A DNA stretch of 12,419 nt from a virus (IMGVR_UViG_2909246061_000007:1-12419), one strand, 5' to 3'; shown: positions 2,621 through 12,419, counted from the stretch's first letter. Notes: generated from the letters alone by a model not told the origin. A program made the numbers and translations.

Positions 2621-2732
2621 AACTGAAGTTGCCCTGAAAATGAAATTTTTTTGCACAACCGCAGAACTTTTCCGCAGGGCATCAGTCTTAATTAGTGCCA
2701 CTGCTTTTCTTTGATGTCCCCATTTTGTGGAG

Positions 2733-2775
2733 CCCATCAACCCCGCCATTTCGGTTCAAGGTTGATGGGTTTTTT
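2733..2775 (+). terminator. rho-independent terminator, about 113 bp downstream of ybjL
   Basis: Perfect 10-bp inverted repeat CCCATCAACC (2733-2742) / GGTTGATGGG (2760-2769) followed by TTTTTT (2770-2775). The 17-nt loop is long but contains internal CCG/CGG pairing. Confidence 0.6.
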
Positions 2776-2855
2776 GTTGCCTGAAATTTAAGCTGTTTAA
2801 AATCATGATGTTAGAAACACTGTTTTTTAACGATGGCGACAAAATGGCGGCAGCG

Positions 2856-3074
2856 TCAAAGAGAGAGCGCCACCTGTCCTGATTTCATTGGATGCGGCTG
2901 AACCGGATTTGACTCTTTTGGCGTTGCAATCGAACGAACAAAAGTTTCATGGGTAACAAAAGTATGGCTGCAGTTAATGTTCTGGCACTGGTTGTAACGC
3001 TCTTTGGTCAATGAAGATACCTGAAAACTGCTGCGAGTATGGGCGGCACTTCCACACAGTGGGCAAATCATCAT
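2856..3074 (-). CDS. ogr: Ogr/Delta-type zinc-finger late transcription activator
   Basis: 72 aa from the ATG at 3074 (MMICPLCGSAAHTR...ERYNQCQNINCSHTF): C-x2-C ... C-x4-C zinc-finger spacing and the ERY-QCQN-NC core typical of P2 Ogr. SD-like GGGGAGAA precedes the start. Lies at the 3' side of gene D as in P2. Confidence 0.85.
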   Translation of the reverse strand: MMICPLCGSAAHTRSSFQVSSLTKERYNQCQNINCSHTFVTHETFVRSIATPKESNPVQPHPMKSGQVALSL

Positions 3075-3164
3075 TTTTCGAGTTCTCCCCATTTTTGCTA
3101 AATTCACAATAATGACACCGCATTATTCCATTTTGCAAACTTAAAAGTTCTCCATTGCGAAGAA

Positions 3165-4016
3165 TCATTCCATTTCGAAATCATCAATCCTCACTTCAAG
3201 CTCCAGACTGGTTGTAAAACCGTTATCGGGGCTGACGGTATGCGTCAGAGTCGTAATGGTCCATTCCGCATCATCTATCGGCTGTTTAAAGCCACTGACT
3301 TTCACTGGCATTTCCGTGTAGAGATCTGCCCGACCTTCTGCCAGTTGTAGCGAGAATGACGCAACGCCGCGTTGCAGGCGTTCCCACTGCATTTTCGCCG
3401 CCCGTTCGGCGTTGCTCCGGTTGGCATAGGTGCGATTAAGTACCAGCACGTTTTCATCTGTACCCACCAGGTAATCGCCCTGCTTCGCTTCGCGGCTAAG
3501 GACAGTCAGTACCACCTCTGCAGGTGCCGGGCTGGTTGCACTGGCATCCGCCACCCGACCGTCGGCGCTTCGGGCATGAAATTCATAAGCTGCGGTTGGC
3601 CCCGCAACCGAAAGCCCTTCAAAAGCCGCAGGCACACGCAGGCGTAACGCTTCATCGCTTTCCATCACAGCAGCAACGGGTGGCACAGCGTCATTATCAG
3701 CAGGCGTCACCGTCAGGCGTTTCACGTTGTAATTGGCAGCGAGCTGGTCCAGATCGCTCCCTATGGCATAAGCCACCATCACCGCCTGCGCGGCTTCGTT
3801 AATGCGCTGGCGCAGGAGCAACTCACGATAAGCGTTCTCCTGCAACAATTTGGTAATGGGTTCAGATTCCAGTTCCAGCGTACGCATCACTGCTTCCTGC
3901 TCATCTTTCGGATGAAGCGCTACAAATTCTGCCTTGCGTTCGGCAAGCAGCGTCTCAAAGTCCGGCACATCCACAATCTGCGGCGCAGGTAACTGCGAAA
4001 GGTCAATCACTGCCAT
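3165..4016 (-). pseudogene. in-frame chimeric ORF: baseplate protein J (N-terminal part) fused to tail protein D (C-terminal part)
   Basis: N-terminus (MAVIDLSQLPAPQIVDVPDFETLLAERKA...) resembles P2 gpJ. C-terminus (...ANRSNAERAAK..WERLQRGVA...VKVSGFK...DNGFTTSLELEV) resembles the C-terminus of P2 gpD. Implies deletion of I-H-G-FI-FII-E-T-U. AGGAG SD upstream of the ATG at 4016; junction roughly 3440-3520. Confidence 0.7.
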
Positions 4017-4362
4017 TCTCTGCTCCTGTTGATACGGAAAGGGACACAGGCACACCGTTATTCCGCCGCCCGGTCAGCTCCACCACCATTGAACCGTCAA
4101 AATTGCTGTTGATGGTGATGGAATCCAGCGTCAGCCGTGGCTCCCAGCGACTCAGCGCCACATACACTGCCGACATGACCTGCAGGCGTAACGCCGGATT
4201 TTGTGGCTGGTCTATCAGTGCCGACAGCAGGGAACCATATTCACGGCGAGCAATGCGGCTACCCTGCGGCGTCAGCAGAATGTCCCGCACCGACTGGCGC
4301 AGATGGTCAATATCAGTAATGGCTTTACCGCTGGTATTGTTCATCCCGCTATAAAGCGTCAT
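4003..4362 (-). CDS. W: baseplate assembly protein W (gp25-like)
   Basis: 119-aa ORF with the pattern DIDHLRQSVRDILLTPQGSRIARREYGSLL...DQPQNPAL...WEPR, matching my recollection of P2 gpW. ATGA overlap with the upstream V fragment; its 3' end overlaps the J start. Confidence 0.82.
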   Translation of the reverse strand: MTLYSGMNNTSGKAITDIDHLRQSVRDILLTPQGSRIARREYGSLLSALIDQPQNPALRLQVMSAVYVALSRWEPRLTLDSITINSNFDGSMVVELTGRRNNGVPVSLSVSTGAENGSD

Positions 4363-4745
4363 ACCGGGCCTCCGGTTGTGTCGCCGCCTTTCAGGACGCC
4401 AGTATGCTGATGTGCATCAACCACAATTCCGTTAGAACTCATTGCACCGCCGCCCTGGGTAACACCACCATTCATCACTACTTCGCTGTTAATACGCGTG
4501 CGGTCAGCCTCCAGCACAAACTCACTGGTTTTCATGGTGATGTTGTCAGCGGCCTCAATGACCATTGATTTGATGCCCCTGACATACCAGCGCCCGGTGG
4601 CGGGTTCGTATTCAAACCAGCCACCGTCAGGATGTTCTGTCACGCAGGCGTCCGCCGACGTCGACGGTGGCGCGAACTGATTCGAATAGATGGCGGGTAA
4701 CGCAAAGGCGGTTTCCAGATTGCCGCCCAGACTCAGCAGCACCAC
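4359..4745 (-). pseudogene. baseplate spike protein V, C-terminal fragment (N-terminal roughly 80 aa missing)
   Basis: ORF aligns with the C-terminal two-thirds of P2 gpV (LSLGGNLETAFALPAIYS...; glycine-rich C-terminal tip HTGVLKGGDTTGGPV). No V N-terminal domain is present upstream; the upstream ORF is instead a lysB-like fragment. Confidence 0.7.
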
Positions 4746-5041
4746 CTGCTCACCTTCCGATGGTCGCCACCATGTGCGGGCATTATCCGGTGTTGTCGTT
4801 GTCTCAGCAGCGCGCTGGTCTGTTCTGCTTCGGCATAGAGCCGCGCCTGCTCCCGGTTATTGGTTTCAGTCAGAATGGACAGGCTGATAAGCTGGCTGTT
4901 GCTCTTTGCCAGTGCCTGGCTTTTGCTCTGCAGCTCGTCTGCCTGCGTGCTGATGGTCTGGCTGGCATCAGCCAGCCGCCACGTCTGCCAGCCCAGCGCC
5001 GCCAGTAATAACGCCAGCATAACCAGCAGCAACCGGTTCAT
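4733..5041 (-). pseudogene. LysB/Rz-like i-spanin, N-terminal fragment (3' part deleted, so the embedded o-spanin is presumably lost)
   Basis: N-terminal TM segment (MNRLLLVMLALLLAALGW) followed by a coiled-coil-like Q/A/L-rich region, in the lysB position with ATGA overlap to lysA (5038-5041). The C-terminal about 20 aa look like unrelated read-through near the junction with V. Confidence 0.55.
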
Positions 5042-5415
5042 GCTGCTACCTGTTGCGCCATCTGATTACGGGTGATCCAGAAGGCAATAACGGTCAGTAG
5101 ATAAAAGACCAGGGTAATAGCCCACCCCGTCCAGGCGAGACTTACGACAATCAGCAATCGCATCACCCAGCTGATAAATACGTTTTCTTTTCGGGTAATG
5201 GTCTTCAGCAAAGATGCCCTCAACTCCTGCCAGAGCGGGCCATTCTTAATTAACGCAGCCAGTGCTACCGGAATTACCGCCCATGTCAGTAAACAGGCTA
5301 CCCAAACGCCGGACGCTGCCAGTACCGGAAAAATCCCCTGGGGATACACCATTGCTGCGATTAACAGCGCCATCCATAACATCAGAAACAGCCCGCTGAT
5401 TAATTTCTTTTTCAT
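5038..5415 (-). CDS. lysA: LysA-like lysis-timing membrane protein (about 125 aa, 4 predicted TM segments)
   Basis: Start assigned to the ATG at 5415 (MKKKLISGLF...), immediately after the K stop codon. Very hydrophobic, in the position of P2 lysA between K and lysB. Confidence 0.65.
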   Translation of the reverse strand: MKKKLISGLFLMLWMALLIAAMVYPQGIFPVLAASGVWVACLLTWAVIPVALAALIKNGPLWQELRASLLKTITRKENVFISWVMRLLIVVSLAWTGWAITLVFYLLTVIAFWITRNQMAQQVAA

Positions 5416-5416
5416 T

Positions 5417-5929
5417 TCAGTTTGCTCCCTGTAAACACCAGGCCATCTCCCGCGCACGGCGGTTATCCAGCCCCTGATTAAACACACCTTTCACATAAAC
5501 CCAGCGCGGCAACTGTCGGCACGCATCCGCCCAGCGCCGCTGATTGAGTAATTTCACCAGCGTGGAACTGCAGGCATTGCCCGTTCCCACGTTGAAGGCA
5601 AACGACACCGCAGTGTCATATACCTTCTGCGGCGGCTGTTGTTTCACACACCTTTCCAGCGCCCGCTCCACACGCAGCACGTTGGAAATCAGTCCTTCTG
5701 CTGCCTGTCGTTCCGTAATGGTTTTGCCGGGAATGACGCCTGACGTGTTACCAATGCCGTCGGTCCAGACGCCCGCGCTGCACTGATACGGCTGCAGACG
5801 ACAGCCTTCGTAATCGGCAATCAGTTTCAGCCCCTCCACGGAGGTGTGAAGCTGCTGAAACCCCGGCAGCGTGGCAGCAATAGCCAGCACGGCCCCGACA
5901 AGGCAGCGTTTAACGATTGATGGATTCAT
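5417..5929 (-). CDS. K: endolysin, T4-lysozyme-like (GH24) with probable SAR-type N-terminal hydrophobic segment
   Basis: 170-aa ORF with an N-terminal hydrophobic stretch (CLVGAVLAIAATLPG) and E-x8-D-x5-T-like catalytic spacing (YEGCRLQPYQCSAGVWTDGIGNT). GGGAGGA SD upstream; in the position of P2 gene K. Confidence 0.8.
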   Translation of the reverse strand: MNPSIVKRCLVGAVLAIAATLPGFQQLHTSVEGLKLIADYEGCRLQPYQCSAGVWTDGIGNTSGVIPGKTITERQAAEGLISNVLRVERALERCVKQQPPQKVYDTAVSFAFNVGTGNACSSTLVKLLNQRRWADACRQLPRWVYVKGVFNQGLDNRRAREMAWCLQGAN

Positions 5930-6125
5930 AGTCCTCCCGCGAGATCTGCCCGTCGCGCAGAAGCTGGTAGGCTTTGTGTTTGTAGTACCAGTTGATAGCC
6001 AGCATCAGCACACCAATCATCAGGCCGCCCAGCGTTGAGGCATCCTTGATGGACAAATCGCCCAGCCAGGCCAGCACAACGGCGATGCAGTACGTGATAA
6101 AGGCGCTGATTCGCTCAAGCGTCAT
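5910..6125 (-). CDS. holin (class II / pinholin-like, 71 aa, two TM segments)
   Basis: Small ORF directly upstream of the endolysin with 20-nt overlap; two hydrophobic helices and a charged C-terminal tail, at the gene Y position. Confidence 0.6.
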   Translation of the reverse strand: MTLERISAFITYCIAVVLAWLGDLSIKDASTLGGLMIGVLMLAINWYYKHKAYQLLRDGQISREDYESINR

Positions 6126-6128
6126 AAT

Positions 6129-6251
6129 TCAGTCCCATAGCTGGACGGTCTGCACGGTGGTGGTGGTCGGAATGTCCGGCAGCTCCACCTGCAGCCCGTG
6201 AGGTAAAAAGGGGCCATAGCCCGCATTGCTGAAATGCTGGGCGAGAAAGTT
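6129..6251 (-). pseudogene. tail protein X, C-terminal fragment
   Basis: Last about 30-40 codons (...FLPHGLQVELPDIPTTTTVQTVQLWD) match the C-terminus of P2 gpX (LPHG..VELPD....LWE). The upstream part of the ORF is unrelated antisense read-through into P. Implies loss of O-N-M-L. Confidence 0.55.
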
Positions 6252-7907
6252 GCAACCGTTCACAGCTGGAAAAAACGCGACAAGTGGGGTGACTATGGGC
6301 CGCTGGATCAGATGCAGCTCACCACCGCCGCACGCTACTGCCAGCTTATTATGAAGGAGCACAAAGAAGGGAAAGATTTCAAAGAGATTGACCTGCTGGC
6401 GCGCCAGTCGGAACGCCACGCGCGGATCGGCAAGTTTAACAATGGCGGCAACGAAGCCGACTTAAACCCAAACGTCGCCAACCGCAACAAAGGCCCGCGC
6501 CGTCAGCCGGAAAAGAATGTTTTCACCGATGAACAGATTGAGAAGCTGGAAGAAATCTTCCATTCCTCCATGTTCAACTACCAGCGCCACTGGTGGGAAG
6601 CCGGAAAAACCAACCGCATCCGCAACCTGCTGAAGTCACGCCAGATCGGCGCGACCTTTTACTTTGCCCGTGAAGCCCTGATTGACGCCCTGCTGACCGG
6701 ACGTAACCAGATTTTCCTTTCCGCCAGCAAGGCACAGGCCCACGTCTTTAAGCAGTACATCATCGACTTCGCCAAAGAAGTGGAAGTGGAGCTGAAAGGC
6801 GATCCGATGGTGCTTCCCAACGGGGCCACGCTTTACTTCCTCGGCACCAATGCCCGCACGGCCCAGAGTTACCACGGCAACCTGTATCTGGATGAATATT
6901 TCTGGATACCGAAATTCCAGGAGCTGCGCAAAGTGGCTTCCGGTATGGCTATTCACAAAAAATGGCGACAGACCTATTTTTCCACGCCATCCAGCCTGAC
7001 ACACAGTGCTTATCCGTTCTGGTCCGGTGCACTGTTCAACCGTGGGCGCAACAAAGCCGATAAGGTGGACATCGACCTGTCCCACAGCAACCTGGCCCCC
7101 GGCCTGCTCTGCGCAGACGGGCAGTACCGCCAGATAGTCACCGTGGAAGATGCGGTGCGCGGCGGCTGTAACCTGTTCGACCTTGACCAGTTGCGCATGG
7201 AGTACAGCCCGGACGAATACCAGAACCTGCTGATGTGCGAGTTTGTGGACGATCTCGCGTCCGTGTTCCCGCTCAGCGAGCTGCAGGCGTGCATGGTGGA
7301 CAGCTGGGAAGTCTGGACCGACTTTCATGCACTGGCACTGCGCCCATTTGGCTGGCGCGAAGTGTGGATCGGTTATGATCCGGCGAAAGGTACGCAGAAC
7401 GGCGACAGTGCCGGATGCGTGGTGGTGGCACCGCCAGCCGTGCCGGGCGGCAAGTTCCGCATTCTTGAGCGTCACCAGTGGCGCGGGATGGACTTTCGCG
7501 CCCAGGCTGACGCCATCAAAAAACTGACCGAACAGTACAACGTGACCTATATCGGCATCGACTCAACCGGTGTTGGTCACGGGGTTTATGAGAACGTGAA
7601 AGCGTTCTTTCCTGCCGTCCGGGAGTTTGTCTACAACCCCAACGTTAAAAACGCCTTGGTACTCAAGGCCTACGACATTATCAACCACCGCCGTCTGGAG
7701 TTTGACGCCGGGCACACCGACATTGCGCAGTCATTCATGGCAATCCGTCGCGCCACCACCGCCAGCGGCAACCGCCCAACCTATGAAGCCAGCCGCAGCG
7801 AAGAAGCCAGCCATGCCGATCTGGCCTGGGCAACAATGCACGCACTGTTTAACGAACCGCTGCAGGGCGAATCCGCCAATACCAGCAATATTGTGGAGAT
7901 TTTTTGA
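6234..7907 (+). CDS. P: terminase large (ATPase) subunit P, probably N-terminally truncated
   Basis: 557-aa ORF with strong resemblance to P2 gpP from about residue 30 onward (ARYCQL...EIDLLARQSERHARIGK...KSRQIGATFYFAREALIDAL...NLLMCEFVDD...SEEASHADLAWA). True start uncertain (ATG 6234 or 6312); the 5' end abuts the X fragment, so the native promoter is probably deleted. Confidence 0.85.
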   Translation: MLGEKVATVHSWKKRDKWGDYGPLDQMQLTTAARYCQLIMKEHKEGKDFKEIDLLARQSERHARIGKFNNGGNEADLNPNVANRNKGPRRQPEKNVFTDEQIEKLEEIFHSSMFNYQRHWWEAGKTNRIRNLLKSRQIGATFYFAREALIDALLTGRNQIFLSASKAQAHVFKQYIIDFAKEVEVELKGDPMVLPNGATLYFLGTNARTAQSYHGNLYLDEYFWIPKFQELRKVASGMAIHKKWRQTYFSTPSSLTHSAYPFWSGALFNRGRNKADKVDIDLSHSNLAPGLLCADGQYRQIVTVEDAVRGGCNLFDLDQLRMEYSPDEYQNLLMCEFVDDLASVFPLSELQACMVDSWEVWTDFHALALRPFGWREVWIGYDPAKGTQNGDSAGCVVVAPPAVPGGKFRILERHQWRGMDFRAQADAIKKLTEQYNVTYIGIDSTGVGHGVYENVKAFFPAVREFVYNPNVKNALVLKAYDIINHRRLEFDAGHTDIAQSFMAIRRATTASGNRPTYEASRSEEASHADLAWATMHALFNEPLQGESANTSNIVEIF

Positions 7908-8380
7908 TGGGAAAGAGTAAGAAAAACCGCGCTGCGGCGACGAATCAGCTCCAGCATAAAAGCCAAACTTCAGCCGAAGCATTCAGCTTCGGTGATCCCA
8001 TTCCAGTACTTGACCGCCGCGAACTGCTGGACTATGTGGAATGCGTACAAACAGATCGCTGGTATGAGCCACCAGTGAGTTTCGACGGGCTGGCGCGTAC
8101 CTTTCGCGCTGCCGTGCATCACAGTTCACCAATTGCGGTGAAATGCAACATTCTGACCAGTACCTACATCCCTCACCCGCTGCTCAGCCAGCAGGCTTTT
8201 TCACGTTTTGTGCAGGACTATCTGGTATTTGGTAACGCCTACCTGGAGAAACGCACGAACCGCTTCGGTGAAGTTATCGCCCTTGAGCCTGCTCTGGCAA
8301 AATACACCCGACGCGGGTTAGACCTGGATACCGCACCTGCAGCAACACGCCCGATCTCTGCGGTTGCACTCATGACATAA
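7907..8380 (+). pseudogene. Q: portal protein Q, N-terminal fragment (about 145 of roughly 340 aa)
   Basis: ATG at 7907 overlaps the P stop TGA (7905-7907). The N-terminal region (FSFGDPIPVLDRRELLDYVEC...WYEPPVSFDGLAR...AVHHSSPI...KYTRRG) is portal-like; the ORF then diverges and stops at 8380, overlapping the cII-like ORF on the opposite strand. Confidence 0.72.
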
Positions 8381-8661
8381 TGCGGCAGTTTCTCTTTTGC
8401 CACCTCATTAATCGGTACACATGGCAGGCAGTGAATCTGTGCCAGAAAGCCATCTACCAGCGTTGAATCTTCAGTCAGATCGGTAAGCAACCAGATTTCT
8501 GGTGCGGTTAATAAATGAGGTTGAGCTGGGTTCAGCTTGTTCCGCAGAATCTGTACATTCATGCCTGCACGTTCTGCCAGTCGCACCAGGTTGTGGCGCA
8601 GTGCGAATGCACGACAGGCTTCGTCAAAATGTGGATGTTTGGAAACTTGGTAATCAAACAT
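8239..8661 (-). pseudogene. cII: 186-type CII-like regulator, 3'-truncated and reading through into antisense of the Q fragment
   Basis: ATG at 8661 preceded by a [57 protein letters not shown]...[26 protein letters not shown] matches the phage 186 CII family (HTH). Resemblance is lost after about 115 codons, near 8320-8345. Confidence 0.68.
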
Positions 8662-8693: not shown

Positions 8694-8915
8694 CTAGTTG
8701 AATACAACATTGCAATCAGTAAGTGCATCAACGGTAAGAGCAGCAAGGTTGATCATTACCTTTTCTCTTTTCTTGTCTTTCCGAAGGCGATGGCGAGGGA
8801 TGCGACCATCAGCCAGCATATCGTTGATGGTGTCGATAGAAAGACCAGTAAGTTCGCTATAACGCTCAATTGTGACGTGTGGCGTATTCAGAGTTATTGA
8901 AATGTTAGGGGTCAT
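8694..8915 (-). CDS. Apl/Cox-like small DNA-binding protein (73 aa; excisionase / lytic-side switch regulator)
   Basis: ATG at 8915 with an AGGAGA SD. Small basic protein with HTH-like segment ([25 protein letters not shown]), divergent from cI and upstream of cII, i.e. the 186 apl position. Confidence 0.6.
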
Positions 8916-9010
8916 GATGCAACATCTCCTATTGGCTTGTGGTGAGCCTGTAGTAATCGTGACAAGTACCCAAACGGGGACAAAATTGATACTAGGATCG
9001 CAAAAGAGAT
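8916..9010. promoter_or_regulatory. lysis-lysogeny switch region between divergent apl-like and cI genes (lytic and lysogenic promoters and operators expected)
   Basis: 95-bp intergenic region between divergently oriented regulator genes; position is analogous to the pR/pL region of 186. Individual -10/-35 hexamers could not be assigned confidently by eye. Confidence 0.5.
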
Positions 9011-9607
9011 ATGTCAACATCAAAGTACCCAAATGAGATCAAAATAAATCCCAATAAAGGTGGTAAGGCTGCGATTGAGCGATTAGTCGAAGCTTATGGC
9101 TTTACGACACGACAGGCTTTAGCTGATCACTTGGAAGTATCAAAAAGCACTCTGGCGAACAGGTATTTGCGGGATACGTTTCCTGCAGACTGGATAATCC
9201 AATGTGCTCTTGAAACAGGAACCTCACTGAAATGGTTAACCACCGGGCAAGGCCTTAAGCAAAGCTCGCTGACAGCAGCTACAGAAGAGCTTGCCAAGTT
9301 TCGCCTTACCGCAGGCAAAATGATTGAAGATGGTTCATATGTCTTCGATTCATCATTTCTTCCTGCAAATCTTTCATCACCAATTGTTATTCAGGATGGG
9401 CTCGTCACATACATTTGTGATCAAAAATTTTCTGAAGTACTTGATGGGCACTGGTTAATCAACATCGACGGAACCTATTCCATTCGAAAAATCACAAAGC
9501 TTCCAAAAGGTATGATTAAAATTACAAGTACAGAGAATAGCTTTGAATGTGCATTTTCTGATATTGAAGTAGTTGCTTGTATAAGAAGTACAATAGTTTC
9601 AAATTAA
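9011..9607 (+). CDS. cI: 186-type CI immunity repressor
   Basis: 198-aa ORF with an N-terminal HTH (ERLVEAYGFTTRQALADHLEVSKSTLANRY...CALETGTSLKWLTTGQG) and a C-terminal region (HWLINIDGTYSIRKITKLP...FECAFSDIEV) that match my recollection of phage 186 CI across both domains. Confidence 0.85.
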   Translation: MSTSKYPNEIKINPNKGGKAAIERLVEAYGFTTRQALADHLEVSKSTLANRYLRDTFPADWIIQCALETGTSLKWLTTGQGLKQSSLTAATEELAKFRLTAGKMIEDGSYVFDSSFLPANLSSPIVIQDGLVTYICDQKFSEVLDGHWLINIDGTYSIRKITKLPKGMIKITSTENSFECAFSDIEVVACIRSTIVSN

Positions 9608-9627
9608 TATAGTAAAAGGATTTAAAA

Positions 9628-11304
9628 ATGAATTCATTTTCCATCGTTATATTCTTATTAGCATTTCTCGCCCCCATTCTAGCTGTAATATTATTTAAGC
9701 AAAGCAAAAAACATAAAGCGGCTATAGATACCTTGACAGCTAACAACATAGCCCTTTCCAACCAACTGAAAGAAAATCAAGAAGAATTAGCACAGACTGT
9801 ACGAGATCTATCAGAGCTTGAAGGACGAGCTGCACCATTATGGCAATACGTAGAATTGCACAGCGCAGTGATGGAAGCAGAGAATAAGATAAAAAATGCA
9901 GACTCAATAGCCAGGCAAAAAATAGAAGAAGCCCAAATAAAGGCTGCTAAGACAGTAAACGAAGCAAATTATCAAGCTCAGATAAAAATAAGCAACGCTA
10001 ATAGCGAAGCTATAGCAATTACTAAAGACGCTCGCGATGCACGCCTGAAAGCTAAAGAACGTCTTGATAATGCCAATAGTAAAGCAAATGAGCTGATCTC
10101 AAATGCTAATGACAATGCAGTGAAAATTATTTCCGATGCAGAAGAAAGAGCAAAAGAGATTGCTGGTTCAGCATATGAAGCTAAAGAGTTTGCAGAAAAA
10201 TATGAAGCAGTTGCCAAATCAATGAAAAATAAAATTGAAGGTTATGGTGATGAATGGATCATCCCTAACCGTAGCGTTCTCGATGAATTGGCAGAAAATT
10301 ATGAGTTTACAGATGCAGGCAAGGAATTACAAAAAGCCAGGGAGTTAACAAAATCATTAATAAAAACTAATAAAGCTGCTTCGTGTGATTATGTTGAACA
10401 AAACAGGCGTAATACTGCTATCAACTTTGTTTTAGATGCCTTCAATGGAAGAGTTGACAGTATTTTATCAAAAGTCAAACACAACAATTTTGGAAAACTT
10501 TCCCAAGAGATAAAAGATGCGTTTCAACTTGTAAATTACAATGGTTCTGCCTTTAGGTCCGCAAAAATAAGTGACATCTATCTTCAAGCTCGACTCAACG
10601 AGCTAAAATGGGGTGTTGCAGTTAATGAAATTATGCTCGAAGAAAAAGAAGAGCAAAGAAGGATTAAAGAACAACTTCGTGAAGAGGAAAGAGCTCGTAG
10701 GGAGTATGAAAAAGCGATAAAAGAAGCTGAAAAAGAAGAGAAAGCTATTCAGCAAGCTATAAATAAAGCAACAAAAGAGCTTATGCTTGCAAATGAAGAA
10801 CAACGCTTAGCTTTAGAGCAAAAAATAGCTGAACTACAGTTAAAATATGAAGAAGCTGAAGCTAAAAACCAACGAGCTATTTCTATGGCTCAACAAACTA
10901 GATCAGGCCACGTTTATATAATTAGTAATATTGGCTCATTTGGCGAAGATGTATATAAAATTGGAATGACACGCCGCCTTGAACCACTTGATCGTGTTCG
11001 TGAACTCGGTGATGCTAGTGTTCCTTTTTCGTTCGATGTTCATGCGATGATTTATAGTGATGATGCACCATCATTAGAAAATCATCTGCATAAAGTCTTC
11101 AACGAAAAACAGGTCAATAAAATTAACTCACGAAAAGAGTTTTTCAACGTAAATATTAAAGAAATTAAGTCTGTTATTGAAGATATGAACATCAACGCAC
11201 AATGGACAATGTTTGCGGAAGCGAAAGAATATAGAGAGTCACTGGCGATTGAGCAAGAGCGCAAAGCAGCAACTTCCGCCAACGATGAACTGCATGTTGC
11301 TTAG
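9628..11304 (+). CDS. membrane-anchored coiled-coil protein with C-terminal GIY-YIG-like (T5orf172/MUG113-type) domain; candidate defense/exclusion cargo gene
   Basis: 558-aa ORF with an aaagga SD 6-11 nt upstream. Residues 1-24 form a hydrophobic anchor; about 30-200 and 330-420 are E/K/A-rich coiled coil; about 205-330 is a globular region; about 427-510 is GHVYIISN-x9-VYKIGMTRR...E...RKEFF (GIY-x10-YIG-R...E...EFF pattern). Visibly AT-rich compared with flanking phage genes. Confidence 0.8.
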   Translation: MNSFSIVIFLLAFLAPILAVILFKQSKKHKAAIDTLTANNIALSNQLKENQEELAQTVRDLSELEGRAAPLWQYVELHSAVMEAENKIKNADSIARQKIEEAQIKAAKTVNEANYQAQIKISNANSEAIAITKDARDARLKAKERLDNANSKANELISNANDNAVKIISDAEERAKEIAGSAYEAKEFAEKYEAVAKSMKNKIEGYGDEWIIPNRSVLDELAENYEFTDAGKELQKARELTKSLIKTNKAASCDYVEQNRRNTAINFVLDAFNGRVDSILSKVKHNNFGKLSQEIKDAFQLVNYNGSAFRSAKISDIYLQARLNELKWGVAVNEIMLEEKEEQRRIKEQLREEERARREYEKAIKEAEKEEKAIQQAINKATKELMLANEEQRLALEQKIAELQLKYEEAEAKNQRAISMAQQTRSGHVYIISNIGSFGEDVYKIGMTRRLEPLDRVRELGDASVPFSFDVHAMIYSDDAPSLENHLHKVFNEKQVNKINSRKEFFNVNIKEIKSVIEDMNINAQWTMFAEAKEYRESLAIEQERKAATSANDELHVA

Positions 11305-11362
11305 CAATGTATGTTTCATAGTAATCACACATTGATTACTGGTTGTATATACAGTTAAATTT

Positions 11363-11387
11363 AGCCCTCTGATATGAGGGCTTTTTT
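11363..11387 (+). terminator. rho-independent terminator immediately upstream of int; stem overlaps the int ribosome-binding site
   Basis: AGCCCTC (11363-11369), loop TGATAT, GAGGGCT (11376-11382), then TTTTTT (11382-11387) directly followed by the int ATG at 11388. Confidence 0.65.
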
Positions 11388-12419
11388 ATGGCAGTACGAA
11401 AACTCACCACAGGAAAATGGCTTTGCGAATGTTACCCCGCCGGACGTAGTGGACGTCGTGTGCGTAAACAATTCGCCACCAAAGGCGAAGCTCTGGCTTT
11501 TGAGCGTCACACGATGGAAGAAACCGAAGCAAAGCCCTGGCTGGGTGAATCAGTGGATCGTCGAACACTGAAAGACGTGGTTGAACTATGGTTCAAACTA
11601 CATGGTAAATCTCTGACAGCTGGGCAGCATGTCTATGACAAATTGCTGTTGATGGTTGACGCTCTGGGCAATCCCCTTGCAACCGATCTCACCTCTAAAA
11701 TGTTTGCCCACTATCGAGATAAACGTCTGACAGGAGAGATCTACTTCAGCGAAAAATGGAAGAAAGGAGCAAGCCCGGTCACCATTAACCTGGAGCAAAG
11801 CTATCTAAGTAGTGTTTTTAGCGAACTATCCCGCCTGGGCGAATGGTCGTATCCGAACCCACTGGAGAACATGCGAAAATTCACCATCGCAGAAAAAGAG
11901 ATGGCATGGCTTACCCATGAGCAGATTGTTGAATTGCTGGCTGATTGCAAACGTCAGGACCCAATTCTGGCACTGGTAGTTAAGATATGCTTAAGCACAG
12001 GCGCACGTTGGCGTGAAGCCGTAAATCTTACCCGCTCACAGGTGACCAAATACCGAATTACCTTTGTAAGAACGAAGGGGAAGAAAAACAGAAGCATCCC
12101 TATCAGTAAAGAGCTTTACGAAGAGATCATGGCGCTTGATGGGTTCAATTTCTTTACAGACTGCTATTTTCAATTTTTATCCGTGATGGAAAAAACGTCT
12201 ATCGTGCTCCCTCGCGGTCAACTGACACACGTTCTGCGCCATACGTTTGCGGCGCACTTCATGATGTCGGGTGGAAATATCCTGGCCTTACAAAAAATTC
12301 TCGGGCATCACGATATAAAAATGACTATGCGTTACGCACATCTGGCACCGGATCACCTGGAAACTGCATTACGGTTTAATCCGCTGGCAACACTACCAAC
12401 ATCAATAGCAAGTTTTTGA
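11388..12419 (+). CDS. int: P2-family tyrosine integrase
   Basis: 343-aa ORF ending with TGA at the last base of the window. Contains tyrosine-recombinase catalytic regions (LSTGARWREA..., HVLRHTFAAHFMMSGGNILALQKILGHHDIKMTMRYAHL with R, H-x-x-R, and Y). Position after cI matches P2/186 organisation. Confidence 0.9.
   Translation: MAVRKLTTGKWLCECYPAGRSGRRVRKQFATKGEALAFERHTMEETEAKPWLGESVDRRTLKDVVELWFKLHGKSLTAGQHVYDKLLLMVDALGNPLATDLTSKMFAHYRDKRLTGEIYFSEKWKKGASPVTINLEQSYLSSVFSELSRLGEWSYPNPLENMRKFTIAEKEMAWLTHEQIVELLADCKRQDPILALVVKICLSTGARWREAVNLTRSQVTKYRITFVRTKGKKNRSIPISKELYEEIMALDGFNFFTDCYFQFLSVMEKTSIVLPRGQLTHVLRHTFAAHFMMSGGNILALQKILGHHDIKMTMRYAHLAPDHLETALRFNPLATLPTSIASF

What the first reader, a model, noticed from the sequence alone, without database searches (positions are those of the whole stretch)
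9590..11390. Cargo gene appears wired into the lysogenic cI transcript and insulated from int by a terminator that sequesters the int RBS
Seen in sequence: the cI stop (9605-9607) and cargo start (9628) are only 20 bp apart with an SD but no room for an independent promoter or terminator, so co-transcription with cI is the simplest reading. A strong hairpin plus T6 (11363-11387) ends the cargo transcript, and its 3' stem arm GAGGGC is the only SD-like sequence in front of the int ATG (11388). Inference: the cargo gene would be expressed constitutively in the lysogen along with the repressor, as expected for a lysogen-protecting function. Read-through int expression from the cI promoter, as occurs in 186-type phages, would be blocked, and int translation could be structurally attenuated.
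Basis: partly seen in the sequence, partly recalled or inferred. Interest (0 to 1): 0.55.

Follow-up and report, generated by a model that had tools for sequence, protein, structure and literature searches.

The report
Insulated, SOS-controlled integrase behind defence cargo

Summary
The cI stop (9605-9607), an AAGGA ribosome-binding site (SD), the cargo ATG (9628), the hairpin AGCCCTC/GAGGGCT plus T6 (11363-11387) and the int ATG (11388) are all where stated.

- **Cargo.** It is a homologue of PD-lambda-1/SNIPE, a membrane nuclease that cuts injected phage DNA.
- **Hotspot.** In 84 loci carrying the same integrase, the repressor-to-int interval holds at least 12 unrelated cargo sets. All are co-oriented, and most start 2-31 nt after the repressor stop. 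This supports co-transcription with cI.
- **The hairpin belongs to int, not to the cargo.** It is present whatever lies upstream, including a relative with no cargo. At least seven hairpin versions all pair the int SD. The T-run is present only in some versions.
The cargo-int spacer is filled with regulatory signals: a 186-CII-type inverted repeat (11307-11332), a -35 (11332-11337), a strong LexA box (11337-11356) and a -10 (11355-11361). The predicted transcription start falls at the end of the hairpin's 5' arm.

Best model: read-through from cI/cargo is terminated and cannot be translated. Int is made from its own SOS-derepressed promoter, which is probably also CII-activated in relatives. 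No start site or protein binding has been measured.

The parts
8635..8661 (+). pE-type CII operator ATGTTTG-N13-CAAACAT, overlapping the cII start codon (8661, minus strand)
   Evidence: Half-sites and spacing are identical to the annotated CII site of phage 186 pE.
8327..8661 (-). cII remnant, C-terminally truncated by a deletion that fuses it to the portal gene
   Evidence: blastn against KP12 and PSS-10. RefSeq annotates it as a pseudogene. The intact KP12 CII is 72% identical to 186 CII.
8694..8915 (-). apl/cox-like gene (73 aa), first gene of the early lytic operon
   Evidence: ORF list. Annotated as Cox in 813R9. No Pfam hit.
8959..9017 (.). Face-to-face switch promoters: the lysogenic (pL/Pc-like) promoter GTGACA-16-CAAAAT at 8959-8986 (+), and the lytic (pR-like) promoter TTGACA-17-TAGTAT at 9017-8989 (-)
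   Evidence: Consensus scan. The arrangement matches that annotated for 186.
9011..9607 (+). cI immunity repressor (198 aa)
   Evidence: Pfam Phage_CI_repr 8e-32 and Phage_CI_C 4e-27. 33% identical to 186 CI.
9608..9627 (+). 20-nt cI-cargo spacer with SD AAGGA at 9616-9620
   Evidence: Read directly from the sequence. No promoter-like or terminator-like hit.
9628..11304 (+). Cargo: PD-lambda-1/SNIPE homologue (558 aa) with an N-terminal hydrophobic helix, DUF4041 and a T5orf172/MUG113 (GIY-YIG-like) nuclease domain
   Evidence: PADLOC PD-Lambda-1 4e-120. Pfam DUF4041, T5orf172 and MUG113. Function is taken from PMC13190303.
11307..11332 (+). CII-type inverted repeat ATGTATG-N12-CACACAT. It is degenerate here and perfect (ATGTTTG-N13-CAAACAT) in relatives
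11332..11337 (+). -35-like TTGATT (TTGACA, TTGACC or TTGACT in relatives)
   Evidence: The tool flags the relatives' versions as promoters.
11337..11356 (.). LexA (SOS) box TACTGGTTGTATATACAGTT (reverse complement AACTGTATATACAACCAGTA)
   Evidence: Heterology index 1.6, against 13.9 for the next best site in the window. The best of 200 random 12.4-kb sequences is 5.5. It is the only ACTG-N10-CAGT in the window. It is the best box in the whole KP12 genome, ahead of the tum-promoter box.
11355..11361 (+). -10-like TTAAAT/TAAATT, 17-18 nt after the -35. Predicted TSS about 11366-11369
   Evidence: Sequence plus the geometry conserved in all variants. The TSS has not been measured.
11363..11382 (+). 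Hairpin AGCCCTC-tgatat-GAGGGCT. The 3' arm contains the int SD GAGGG (11376-11380)
   Evidence: Compensatory variants in relatives.
11382..11387 (+). T6 tract completing an intrinsic-terminator-like signal directly in front of the int ATG
11388..12419 (+). int, tyrosine integrase (343 aa)
   Evidence: Pfam Int_N and Phage_integrase. 55% identical to 186 Int from residue 1.

Best explanation
This is the lysogeny end of a decayed 186-like prophage. The proposed mechanism has four parts.

1. **Cargo in the repressor operon.** The defence gene (a SNIPE/PD-lambda-1 homologue) sits in the repressor operon. It is transcribed with cI from the lysogenic promoter, and in intact phages also from the CII-dependent pE. 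It is therefore made constitutively in the lysogen.
2. **Hairpin as insulator.** The hairpin at 11363-11382 is part of a conserved int leader. In transcripts arriving from cI/cargo it forms, pairs the int SD, and in this variant terminates with its T6 tract. Lysogenic transcription therefore yields little or no Int.
3. **Int has its own promoter.** The promoter lies in the 83-nt spacer: -35 at 11332-11337 and -10 at 11355-11361. Its predicted start (about 11366-11369) falls at the end of the hairpin's 5' arm. Its own mRNA lacks that arm, so it is neither terminated nor strongly SD-blocked.
4. **Control of that promoter.** A strong LexA box between -35 and -10 would repress it. A 186-CII-type inverted repeat abuts the -35 with the same geometry as at 186 pE.

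Int would then be made in the two situations where it is needed: SOS induction (LexA cleaved, together with Tum and Apl) and establishment of lysogeny (CII high). In this window the CII input is probably dead, because cII is truncated and the site is degenerate.

**Shown:** the sequence elements, their conservation and their geometry. **Inferred:** promoter activity, start-site position, LexA and CII binding, and termination efficiency.
For: **Cargo in the cI operon**
- The gap is 20 nt with an SD. The only + strand promoter-like site upstream is the one before cI.
- Among 84 loci with an Int at least 98% identical, the repressor-int interval carries at least 12 cargo classes. These include Old, PDC-S20 KAP NTPases, PDC-M18, SNIPE and several unknowns.
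- All cargo is on the repressor strand, mostly 2-31 nt after the repressor stop, and ends a few nt before the int leader.

**Hairpin belongs to int**
- The roughly 80 nt before int are homologous under every cargo, and in cargo-less ESSI2_ev040, while the sequence upstream is unrelated.
- There are 33 unique leader 3' segments and at least 7 hairpin sequences. In each, the MFE hairpin's 3' arm contains the SD-like run: GGAGGG, GAGGGC, GAGGAC, AAGGGG, GAAGGGGG or AGAGAGGA. Compensatory changes occur, for example AGCCCTC/GAGGGCT versus AGTCCTC/GAGGACT.
- In the window, SD P(unpaired) is 0.00 with the 5' arm. It rises to 0.2-0.4 when the RNA starts at 11368-11370.

**Promoter**
- The tool flags TTGACA-17-AAAAAT (L004) and TTGACA-18-AATCAT (ev040) at the homologous place as the only + strand promoter-like sites there.
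- In all variants the 5' arm starts 6-8 nt after the LexA box CAG, which is directly after the -10.

**LexA box**
- Heterology index is 1.6. Training sites span 0.7-9.2, the next best site in the window is 13.9, and the best of 200 random sequences is 5.5.
- CTG-N10-CAG is present in 84 of 84 loci retrieved by protein similarity.
- In the whole KP12 genome the two best boxes are this one and the box at the tum/DinI-like operon. That second box is the expected positive control.
- 186, whose int overlaps cI, has no box in this region.
- The consensus TACTG(TA)5CAGTA is taken from PMC9578287.

**CII site**
- The 186 pE site is ATGTTTG-N13-CAAACAT abutting the -35.
- ev040 has exactly two perfect copies, one at pE and one before int.
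- The exact pattern plus TGAC occurs 38 times in IMG/VR. All are int leaders of this family, except one cut by a contig end and one interrupted.
- The combined CII/-35/LexA pattern occurs 10 times across the GTDB species genomes, always before an int ATG. Nine are in Enterobacterales records and one record is labelled a Bacillota MAG.
- KP12 CII is 72% identical to 186 CII over its full length.
Against: - No transcript ends, protein binding or reporter data exist. Every functional step is inferred from sequence.
- The window's own promoter hexamers are weak: TTGATT and TAAATT score 8/12 and were not flagged by the scan.
- Its CII-type repeat has two half-site mismatches and N12 spacing. By my recollection of Shearwin and Egan 2000, which I could not verify here, a +/-1 bp spacing change strongly weakens 186 CII binding. 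cII is also a pseudogene in this element.
- In the commonest variant the '-10' AAAAAT is also the A-tract complementary to the terminator T-tract, so it need not be a promoter element.
- In the shorter RNA the SD is still partly paired with downstream sequence (P unpaired 0.2-0.4).
- My random-sequence control for SD sequestration is only moderately discriminating: p is about 0.02-0.05 in four hairpin families and not significant in the GAGGAC/bulged family.
- The LexA matrix was built from SOS boxes recalled from memory.
- The 186 literature states that 186 has a single CII-activated promoter (PMC7708051).
- One phage with a 55%-identical int (613R3) has a small cargo between cI and int without this module. 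The module is therefore not a prerequisite for cargo at this site.
Confidence: 0.6

Rival explanations
1. The hairpin plus T6 is simply the terminator of the cI-cargo transcript. Int has no promoter of its own and is made only from the small fraction of transcripts that read through, with translation damped further by SD pairing.
For: The hairpin plus T6 meets the intrinsic-terminator pattern. The window's own -35/-10 are weak and were not flagged. In the commonest variant the AAAAAT can be read as a terminator A-tract.
Against: A strong LexA box and a CII-type repeat with pE-like geometry are conserved between cargo and hairpin in 84 of 84 loci. This model gives them no role. Several relatives keep the SD-pairing hairpin with no T-run and no cargo upstream. 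A phage whose Int depended only on leak-through past a terminator and an SD block would integrate and excise poorly.
Confidence: 0.15
2. The hairpin and the neighbouring palindromes came in with the cargo cassette as its own 3' end, or are junction or recombination sequences used for cassette exchange. On this view they are not regulators of int.
For: Homology between cargo classes starts almost exactly at the left half of the inverted repeat, 2-10 nt after each cargo stop. The repeat therefore marks the cassette boundary.
Against: The module is present in cargo-less ev040, where the repressor stop lies inside the left half-site. It is linked to the int family, not to any cargo. The two palindromes match two independently defined operators, 186 CII and LexA, at the positions those operators occupy in known promoters.
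Confidence: 0.07
3. The cargo has its own promoter inside the 3' end of cI, so it is expressed independently of the repressor promoter. This rival concerns only the co-transcription step and is compatible with the int model.
For: A good -10-like TACAAT lies at 9589-9594, 34 nt before the cargo ATG. PD-lambda-1 was reported as active when cloned 'with its native promoter' with only 62 or 282 bp upstream, depending on strand, although that homologue may sit in a different context.
Against: The only -35-like hexamers are at 19 nt (TTGAAG) or 10 nt spacing, and the scan reports no + strand promoter in 9018-11200. Twelve unrelated cargo classes behind at least three repressor types mostly start within 31 nt of the repressor stop. 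This is most simply explained by operon membership.
Confidence: 0.15

Closest known systems
Phage lambda cI-rexA-rexB operon (defence genes co-transcribed with the immunity repressor; own knowledge)
   Same: An anti-phage function sits directly downstream of the repressor on the same strand and is expressed in the lysogen from the maintenance promoter.
   Different: Here the slot is a hypervariable hotspot with at least 12 cargo sets. It lies between the repressor and int in a P2/186-type phage, and the operon is closed by a hairpin that also masks the SD of the next gene.
Phage 186 lysogenic operon pL/pE-cI-int
   Same: The switch layout is the same: face-to-face promoters, apl, cII, and an identical CII operator at pE. 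The proteins are homologous: CII 72% (KP12 homologue), Int 55%, CI 33%.
   Different: In 186 the cI stop overlaps the int ATG, so int is read from the cI transcript. 186 has no LexA box in this region and is reported to have a single CII-activated promoter (PMC7708051). Here int is separated, masked, and given its own signals.
Lambda pI, the CII-activated int promoter, with sib retroregulation (own knowledge; lambda CII activating int is stated in PMC7708051)
   Same: Int expression is uncoupled from the main operon and tied to the establishment activator. An RNA structure makes Int yield depend on which promoter produced the mRNA.
   Different: Lambda CII is unrelated to 186 CII. Lambda's discriminating structure is 3' (sib, RNase III). 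Here it is a 5' hairpin, and the promoter additionally carries a LexA box.
IS10/Tn10 protection from external promoters by fold-back inhibition (Davis, Simons and Kleckner 1985, cited in PMC13181058)
   Same: Read-through transcripts contain a segment upstream of the native start that pairs with the ribosome-binding site. Transcripts from the element's own promoter start inside or after that segment and can be translated.
   Different: The gene here is a phage integrase, not a transposase. The start-site position is only predicted. In some variants the hairpin is also an intrinsic terminator.
LexA-controlled recombinases and phage switches: integron intI promoters (Guerin 2009, cited in PMC9578287) and 186 p95-tum
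   Same: An E. coli-type SOS box overlaps the promoter of a tyrosine recombinase gene or an induction gene. The intact relative KP12 also has the tum-type box.
   Different: I found no report of a LexA box on the int promoter of a P2/186-like phage. Here it is combined with a CII-type operator and an SD-masking hairpin.
P2-like prophage defence hotspots (Rousset 2022 PMC9122126; Vassallo 2022 PMC9519451; NAR 2026 PMC13586616)
   Same: Variable anti-phage cargo occupies fixed positions in P2-like prophages. The 2026 survey lists an 'integrase-primase' interval holding 8% of P2 systems.
   Different: Those papers do not place the slot precisely between repressor stop and int leader. In the one I searched for such terms (PMC13586616), 'terminator' does not occur and the transcriptional wiring is not discussed.

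Membership tests
Intrinsic (Rho-independent) terminator | G+C-rich stem-loop immediately followed by a U-tract | tested here: met
   7-bp stem with 5 G-C pairs, 6-nt loop, -13.3 kcal/mol, then T6.
Intrinsic (Rho-independent) terminator | Conserved as a terminator (stem plus U-tract) in homologous positions | tested here: inconclusive
   The T-run is kept in the window type, classes A/B and L117. It is absent in the ev040, Ewingella and Rahnella variants, and is TTATTT in the Yersinia variant.
Intrinsic (Rho-independent) terminator | Transcript 3' ends at the U-tract in vivo or in vitro | not testable with these tools
   Needs Term-seq or in vitro transcription.
LexA (SOS) box, E. coli type | CTG-N10-CAG palindrome with an AT-rich centre and a heterology index within the range of proven sites | tested here: met
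   16/20 match to TACTG(TA)5CAGTA. HI 1.6 against a 0.7-9.2 range for 19 recalled sites; the best of 200 random 12.4-kb sequences is 5.5. Consensus from PMC9578287.
LexA (SOS) box, E. coli type | Overlaps the core promoter of the regulated gene | tested here: met
   It lies between the -35-like and -10-like hexamers in all variants. The promoter itself is predicted, not measured.
LexA (SOS) box, E. coli type | LexA binding and SOS-dependent derepression | not testable with these tools
   Needs EMSA or ChIP and reporter assays in lexA mutants.
186 CII operator (as at pE) | Inverted heptamers ATGTTTG / CAAACAT | tested here: inconclusive
   The window has ATGTATG / CACACAT (6/7 and 5/7). 26 of 61 unique leaders in relatives are perfect.
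186 CII operator (as at pE) | 13-bp spacer (half-sites two helical turns apart) | tested here: not met
   The window has N12. Relatives split 32 with N13 and 29 with N12. ev040, the Yersinia type, L093, L103 and L117 have N13.
186 CII operator (as at pE) | Right half-site abuts or overlaps the -35 of the activated promoter | tested here: met
   CACACAT ends at 11332, which is the first base of TTGATT. The placement matches CAAACAT at 186 pE.
186 CII operator (as at pE) | A cognate functional CII protein encoded by the element | tested here: not met
   cII is truncated in the window. It is intact in KP12 and in many E. coli strains that are 100% identical from 8327 onward.
Repressor-operon cargo (lambda rexAB type) | Same strand, directly downstream of the repressor, with no promoter or terminator between | tested here: met
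   20-nt gap and no consensus hit. The pattern recurs in at least 12 cargo classes.
Repressor-operon cargo (lambda rexAB type) | Co-transcription with the repressor in the lysogen | not testable with these tools
   Needs RT-PCR or RNA-seq across 9550-9700.
Fold-back inhibition of read-through transcripts (IS10 type) | The SD pairs with a segment lying upstream of the gene's own transcription start | tested here: inconclusive
   Pairing is shown by folding, with compensatory variants. The start site is only predicted from -10 geometry (11366-11369).
SNIPE / PD-lambda-1 defence protein | N-terminal membrane anchor, DUF4041 and a C-terminal GIY-YIG-like (T5orf172) nuclease domain | tested here: met
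   PADLOC PD-Lambda-1 4e-120 over residues 116-550. Pfam DUF4041, T5orf172 and MUG113. The N-terminus MNSFSIVIFLLAFLAPILAVILF is hydrophobic. The protein is about 58 aa longer than the studied 500-aa protein. Anti-phage activity was not tested.

The most novel reading that the evidence does not exclude
A widespread lineage of 186-like prophages of Enterobacterales has replaced the 186 arrangement, in which int is read from the cI transcript, with an undescribed three-part integrase switch. One compact promoter is activated by CII and repressed by LexA. This acts as an OR gate for establishment and SOS induction. Its transcription start lies inside a hairpin that masks the int ribosome-binding site, and in some variants terminates, on every transcript coming from upstream. 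This uncoupling would have turned the repressor-int junction into a safe slot in the lysogenic operon, where defence genes such as SNIPE, Old and KAP NTPases accumulate and are swapped.
Probability: 0.45. Interest if true: 0.7.

Novelty: new variant of a known kind. Interest (0 to 1): 0.6.

Why it matters
If correct, the finding matters in three ways.

1. It explains how a prophage can express a defence gene strongly and constitutively from the repressor operon without also over-producing integrase.
2. It shows a second solution to the problem lambda solves with pI and sib. Int would be made at establishment and at induction but not during stable lysogeny. Here that is achieved with a single LexA/CII-controlled promoter plus a 5' hairpin that distinguishes which promoter made the mRNA.
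3. It gives a precise, searchable landmark for mining cargo in thousands of Enterobacterales prophages: repressor stop, then cargo, then the CII repeat, the LexA box and the SD hairpin. It also predicts that excision of these elements is directly SOS-gated at the level of int.

The predictions can be tested with a handful of reporter fusions and one 5'/3'-end mapping experiment.

Tried and rejected
- **Hairpin as part of the cargo cassette.** Rejected. It is found with every cargo and with none.
- **Upstream repeat as a weak RNA terminator for the cargo.** I first read ATGTATG..CACACAT this way. I dropped it because the 'loop' is 12-13 nt in every class, its sequence is free, and the half-sites match the 186 CII operator.
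- **Window-specific 9-bp stem AGTAATCA/TGATTACT.** It is not conserved in KP12 (one mismatch) or in other classes, so I treat it as incidental.
- **Rfam.** No family reaches threshold at the int leader. Sub-threshold hits (RyhB at 30 bits against a gathering score of 55, Trp leader and others) are generic hairpin-plus-U-tract matches.
- **Shuffle control for SD pairing.** Uninformative, because shuffling keeps the C-rich composition. I replaced it with random genomic segments, which discriminate only moderately.
- **Consensus search allowing 3 mismatches to TACTGTATATATATACAGTA.** It found nothing, because the box has 4 mismatches. The matrix score was needed.
- **Literature.** Searches for a LexA-controlled int in P2/186-like phages found nothing. 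The BTP5 transcriptome paper concerns a 186-like prophage that I could not link to this int lineage.
- **Vassallo supplement.** It gives the cloned PD-lambda-1 fragment but not its strand or context, so it does not settle whether the cargo has its own promoter.

Full report
**What is in the window**

The window is E. coli chromosome (ybjL, then the sRNA gene rybB at 2700-2778) followed by a heavily deleted 186-like prophage. Blocks of ogr/D, baseplate, lysis, terminase and the 5' end of the portal gene are joined directly to a truncated cII at about 8327. From there to 12399 the sequence is 96% identical to Klebsiella phage KP12. It is 100% identical to prophages in many E. coli strains in which RefSeq annotates a CII-family protein rather than a pseudogene.

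The surviving lysogeny end reads as follows:
- cII' and a pE-type CII operator (8635-8661)
- an apl/cox-like gene (8694-8915, minus strand)
- face-to-face switch promoters (8959-9017)
- cI (9011-9607)
- cargo (9628-11304)
- int (11388-12419)

**Check of the observation**

The cI stop is at 9605-9607. The spacer is 20 nt with AAGGA 7 nt before the cargo ATG at 9628.

The hairpin AGCCCTC-tgatat-GAGGGCT (11363-11382) is followed by T's up to 11387 and by the int ATG at 11388. It is the MFE and centroid structure and folds at -13.3 kcal/mol on its own. It is the only + strand terminator-like site between 8600 and 12419.

GAGGG in the 3' arm is the only SD-like run before the ATG. It is fully paired in any RNA that includes the 5' arm. 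The int start is secured by alignment with 186 Int from residue 1.

**The cargo**

The 558-aa protein matches PADLOC PD-Lambda-1 (4e-120) and Pfam DUF4041 plus T5orf172/MUG113. This family was found by Vassallo et al. 2022 (PMC9519451). It was characterised in 2026 as SNIPE, a constitutively membrane-bound nuclease that cuts siphovirus DNA during injection (PMC13190303). A protein that must be in place before infection fits constitutive expression in the lysogen.

**Is the cargo in the cI transcript?**

Directly, only the sequence can be read. There is no promoter-like or terminator-like hit between the cI promoter and the hairpin, apart from one low-scoring hit inside the cargo 3' end. A -10-like TACAAT at 9589-9594 lacks a properly spaced -35.

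The comparative evidence is stronger. I retrieved 80 IMG/VR loci by Int similarity and four phage records. In these, the distance from the pE operator to int ranges from 1361 to 3628 bp. The interval holds at least 12 different cargo sets:
- a 63-aa signal-peptide protein (the commonest)
- KAP NTPases (PDC-S20)
- a P2 Old homologue
- PDC-M18A/B
- SNIPE (16 loci)
- several proteins with no family

All lie on the repressor strand. Most start 2-31 nt after the repressor stop, behind at least three repressor types. All end 2-10 nt before the same int leader. This is the signature of an operon slot.

A 2026 survey lists an 'integrase-primase' interval with 8% of P2 defence systems, but it does not discuss transcription (PMC13586616).

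**The hairpin belongs to int**

The alignment with phage 4LV2017, which has a different repressor and different cargo, shows homology starting right after the cargo stop and running into int. Across all loci the last 80 nt or so before int are one module, while the sequence upstream is unrelated.

ESSI2_ev040 (Int 86.6% identical) has no cargo at all. Its repressor stop lies inside the first element of the module, and int is still preceded by a hairpin.

By contrast, in 186 and in a Yersinia phage (Int about 55% identical) the cI stop overlaps the int ATG.

I collected 33 different -10/hairpin segments comprising at least seven hairpin sequences:
- GCYCTC/GAGGGC
- AGTCCTC/GAGGACT
- RGYCCAAG/CTTGAGGRCT
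- ATACCCC/GGGGTAT
- ATCTCTC/GAGGGAT
- TCCCCTTC/GAAGGGGG
- a Rahnella form

In each, the 3' arm of the MFE hairpin contains the SD-like purine run 5-9 nt before the ATG. The T-run is present in the window type and some others, but absent in ev040, Ewingella and Rahnella. SD masking is therefore the conserved function, and termination is an addition in some variants.

A control that replaced the 5' part with random genomic segments gave p of about 0.02-0.05 in four independent hairpin families. It was not significant for the bulged Yersinia type.

**What fills the 83-nt spacer**

*CII-type repeat.* An inverted repeat, ATGTATG-N12-CACACAT, lies at 11307-11332.
- The annotated CII operator of 186 pE is ATGTTTG-N13-CAAACAT, directly abutting the -35.
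- The window has that exact operator at its own pE (8635-8661).
- In ev040 the repeat before int is a perfect second copy.
- In KP12's whole 34.8-kb genome the only two sites with at most 2 half-site mismatches are pE and this one.
- The exact operator followed by TGAC occurs 38 times in IMG/VR. All are int leaders of this family, bar one contig end and one interrupted copy.
- The spacer is 12 or 13 nt in all 61 unique leaders, and its sequence is free.
- KP12 CII is 72% identical to 186 CII.

*Promoter hexamers.* The -35 is TTGATT (11332-11337) here and TTGACA/C/T elsewhere. The -10 is TTAAAT/TAAATT (11355-11361). The scan tool flags the homologous TTGACA-17-AAAAAT and TTGACA-18-AATCAT as the only + strand promoter-like sites in those regions.

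*LexA box.* Between the hexamers lies TACTGGTTGTATATACAGTT (11337-11356).
- With a heterology-index matrix built from 19 E. coli SOS boxes that I recalled from the literature, it scores 1.6. The training sites span 0.7-9.2.
- The next best site in the window scores 13.9, and the best in 200 random 12.4-kb sequences scores 5.5.
- All variants score 0.7-8.8. CTG-N10-CAG is present in 84 of 84 loci that were retrieved by protein similarity, not by pattern.
- As a positive control, the second-best box in KP12 lies in front of a small ORF plus a DinI-like ORF just after gene A. This is the position of the LexA-controlled tum operon of 186.
- As a negative control, the 186 cI-int region has no box.

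*Combined pattern.* The pattern of CII repeat, TTGAC and CTG-N10-CAGT occurs 10 times in one genome per species of GTDB. Nine records are Enterobacterales: Raoultella, three Yersinia, Escherichia, Citrobacter, Ewingella, Rahnella and one unclassified Enterobacteriaceae. One MAG is labelled Bacillota but carries a sequence nearly identical to the Escherichia one. Every hit lies just before an int ATG.

**Geometry and mechanism**

In every variant the 5' arm of the hairpin begins 6-8 nt after the CAG of the LexA box, which is directly after the -10. A start 7 +/- 1 nt after the -10 falls at 11366-11369 in the window, the last bases of the 5' arm.

RNAs starting there cannot form the hairpin. SD P(unpaired) rises from 0.00 to 0.2-0.4, with the remainder paired weakly to downstream sequence.

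This is the logic described for IS10. There, transcripts from outside promoters fold back on the ribosome-binding site, while transcripts from the element's own promoter do not (Davis, Simons and Kleckner 1985, cited in PMC13181058).

The model is as follows:
- cI/cargo transcripts end at, or are untranslatable beyond, the hairpin.
- Int comes from its own promoter, which is repressed by LexA and, where the operator and CII are intact, activated by CII.
- Int would therefore be made at establishment (CII) and at SOS induction (LexA cleavage, together with Tum and Apl), but not in the stable lysogen.

**Limits**

- Nothing has been measured.
- The window's own hexamers are weak. Its CII repeat is degenerate with N12 spacing, and its cII gene is truncated, so only the LexA and hairpin parts are likely to operate in this strain.
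- In the commonest variant the AAAAAT '-10' doubles as a terminator A-tract.
- The LexA matrix rests on sites recalled from memory, although the consensus is confirmed (PMC9578287) and the tum-position control behaves as expected.
- 186 is reported to have only one CII-activated promoter (PMC7708051). A second CII-dependent promoter in relatives would be new and needs proof.
- Phage 613R3 shows that a small cargo can sit between cI and int without this module.

**Comparison and novelty**

Each ingredient is known:
- defence genes in the repressor operon (lambda rexAB)
- a CII-activated int promoter (lambda pI)
- LexA control of recombinases (integron intI) and of 186 tum
- SD-masking hairpins that block read-through expression (IS10)

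The combination has not been described in the papers I could search. That combination is one 83-nt module in front of int in a widespread 186-like lineage, directly downstream of a defence-cargo slot in the lysogenic operon. I rate it a new variant of known kinds.

**Verdict**

Co-transcription and insulation are likely. However, the hairpin is int's, not the cargo's, and int most likely has its own SOS-controlled promoter.

Noticed in passing
window 2700-2778 (+), and 2765-2790: RybB sRNA gene (Rfam 105 bits) lies directly after ybjL. Homology to phage KP12 begins at about 2765, inside the rybB terminator. The phage attP region carries ATGGGTTTTTTGTTG, so the element appears to integrate at the 3' end of rybB and rebuild it.
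   Followed up: partly
window 2765-8332: The prophage is a roughly 9.6-kb patchwork remnant of a roughly 33-kb phage, with five blocks joined by deletions. The portal gene is fused to cII at about 8327, and the tum region and replication genes are gone. ogr, cI, the SNIPE homologue and int remain intact. The window is also 1354 bp shorter than its closest genome, E. coli PSS-10, at 4784/4789.
   Followed up: partly
L137 (KP12) 21380-21470, minus strand: A LexA box, TACTGTAAATATAAACAGTG, and a second weaker box lie upstream of a 62-aa ORF and a DinI-like ORF just after replication gene A. This is the equivalent of the 186 p95-tum SOS-induction module, and I used it as a positive control.
   Followed up: partly
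window 12400-12419, compared with L002/L003: Int exists in two C-terminal versions: 343 aa as in the window and in many IMG/VR loci, and 350 aa in KP12 and 813R9. They diverge at window 12400. The cause (recombination at the element end or a different att region) was not resolved.
   Followed up: no
L004 5621-5812 and about 42 similar loci: The commonest 'cargo' in the repressor-int slot is a 63-aa protein with a signal-peptide-like N-terminus (MLGKVFFVVLSCSLLLNPL...). It has no Pfam match (not tested against PADLOC) and might be a small exclusion or lipoprotein-type factor.
   Followed up: no
L042 2822-4371: Two repressor-type genes in tandem (191 aa CI-like and 307 aa) precede a KAP NTPase cargo. 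This suggests that the immunity region itself is exchanged or duplicated at this hotspot.
   Followed up: no
L001 2268-3924; L012 4943-5914; L063 4445-5911; L076 3718-5922; L080 3408-5922: Several cargo sets in the same slot have no PADLOC family match, or were not scanned against PADLOC. One includes an ASCH-domain protein and one has a weak DUF3644 match. They are candidate new defence systems by position.
   Followed up: no
window 9589-9594: A -10-like TACAAT lies inside the 3' end of cI, 34 nt before the cargo ATG, with only a TTGAAG 19 nt upstream as a possible -35. It might give weak cI-independent cargo transcription.
   Followed up: no
L124 (IMG/VR), int leader: One int leader is interrupted in the middle of the LexA box by unrelated sequence after ...CTGTTTTTATAT. 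This is possibly an insertion or an assembly junction.
   Followed up: no
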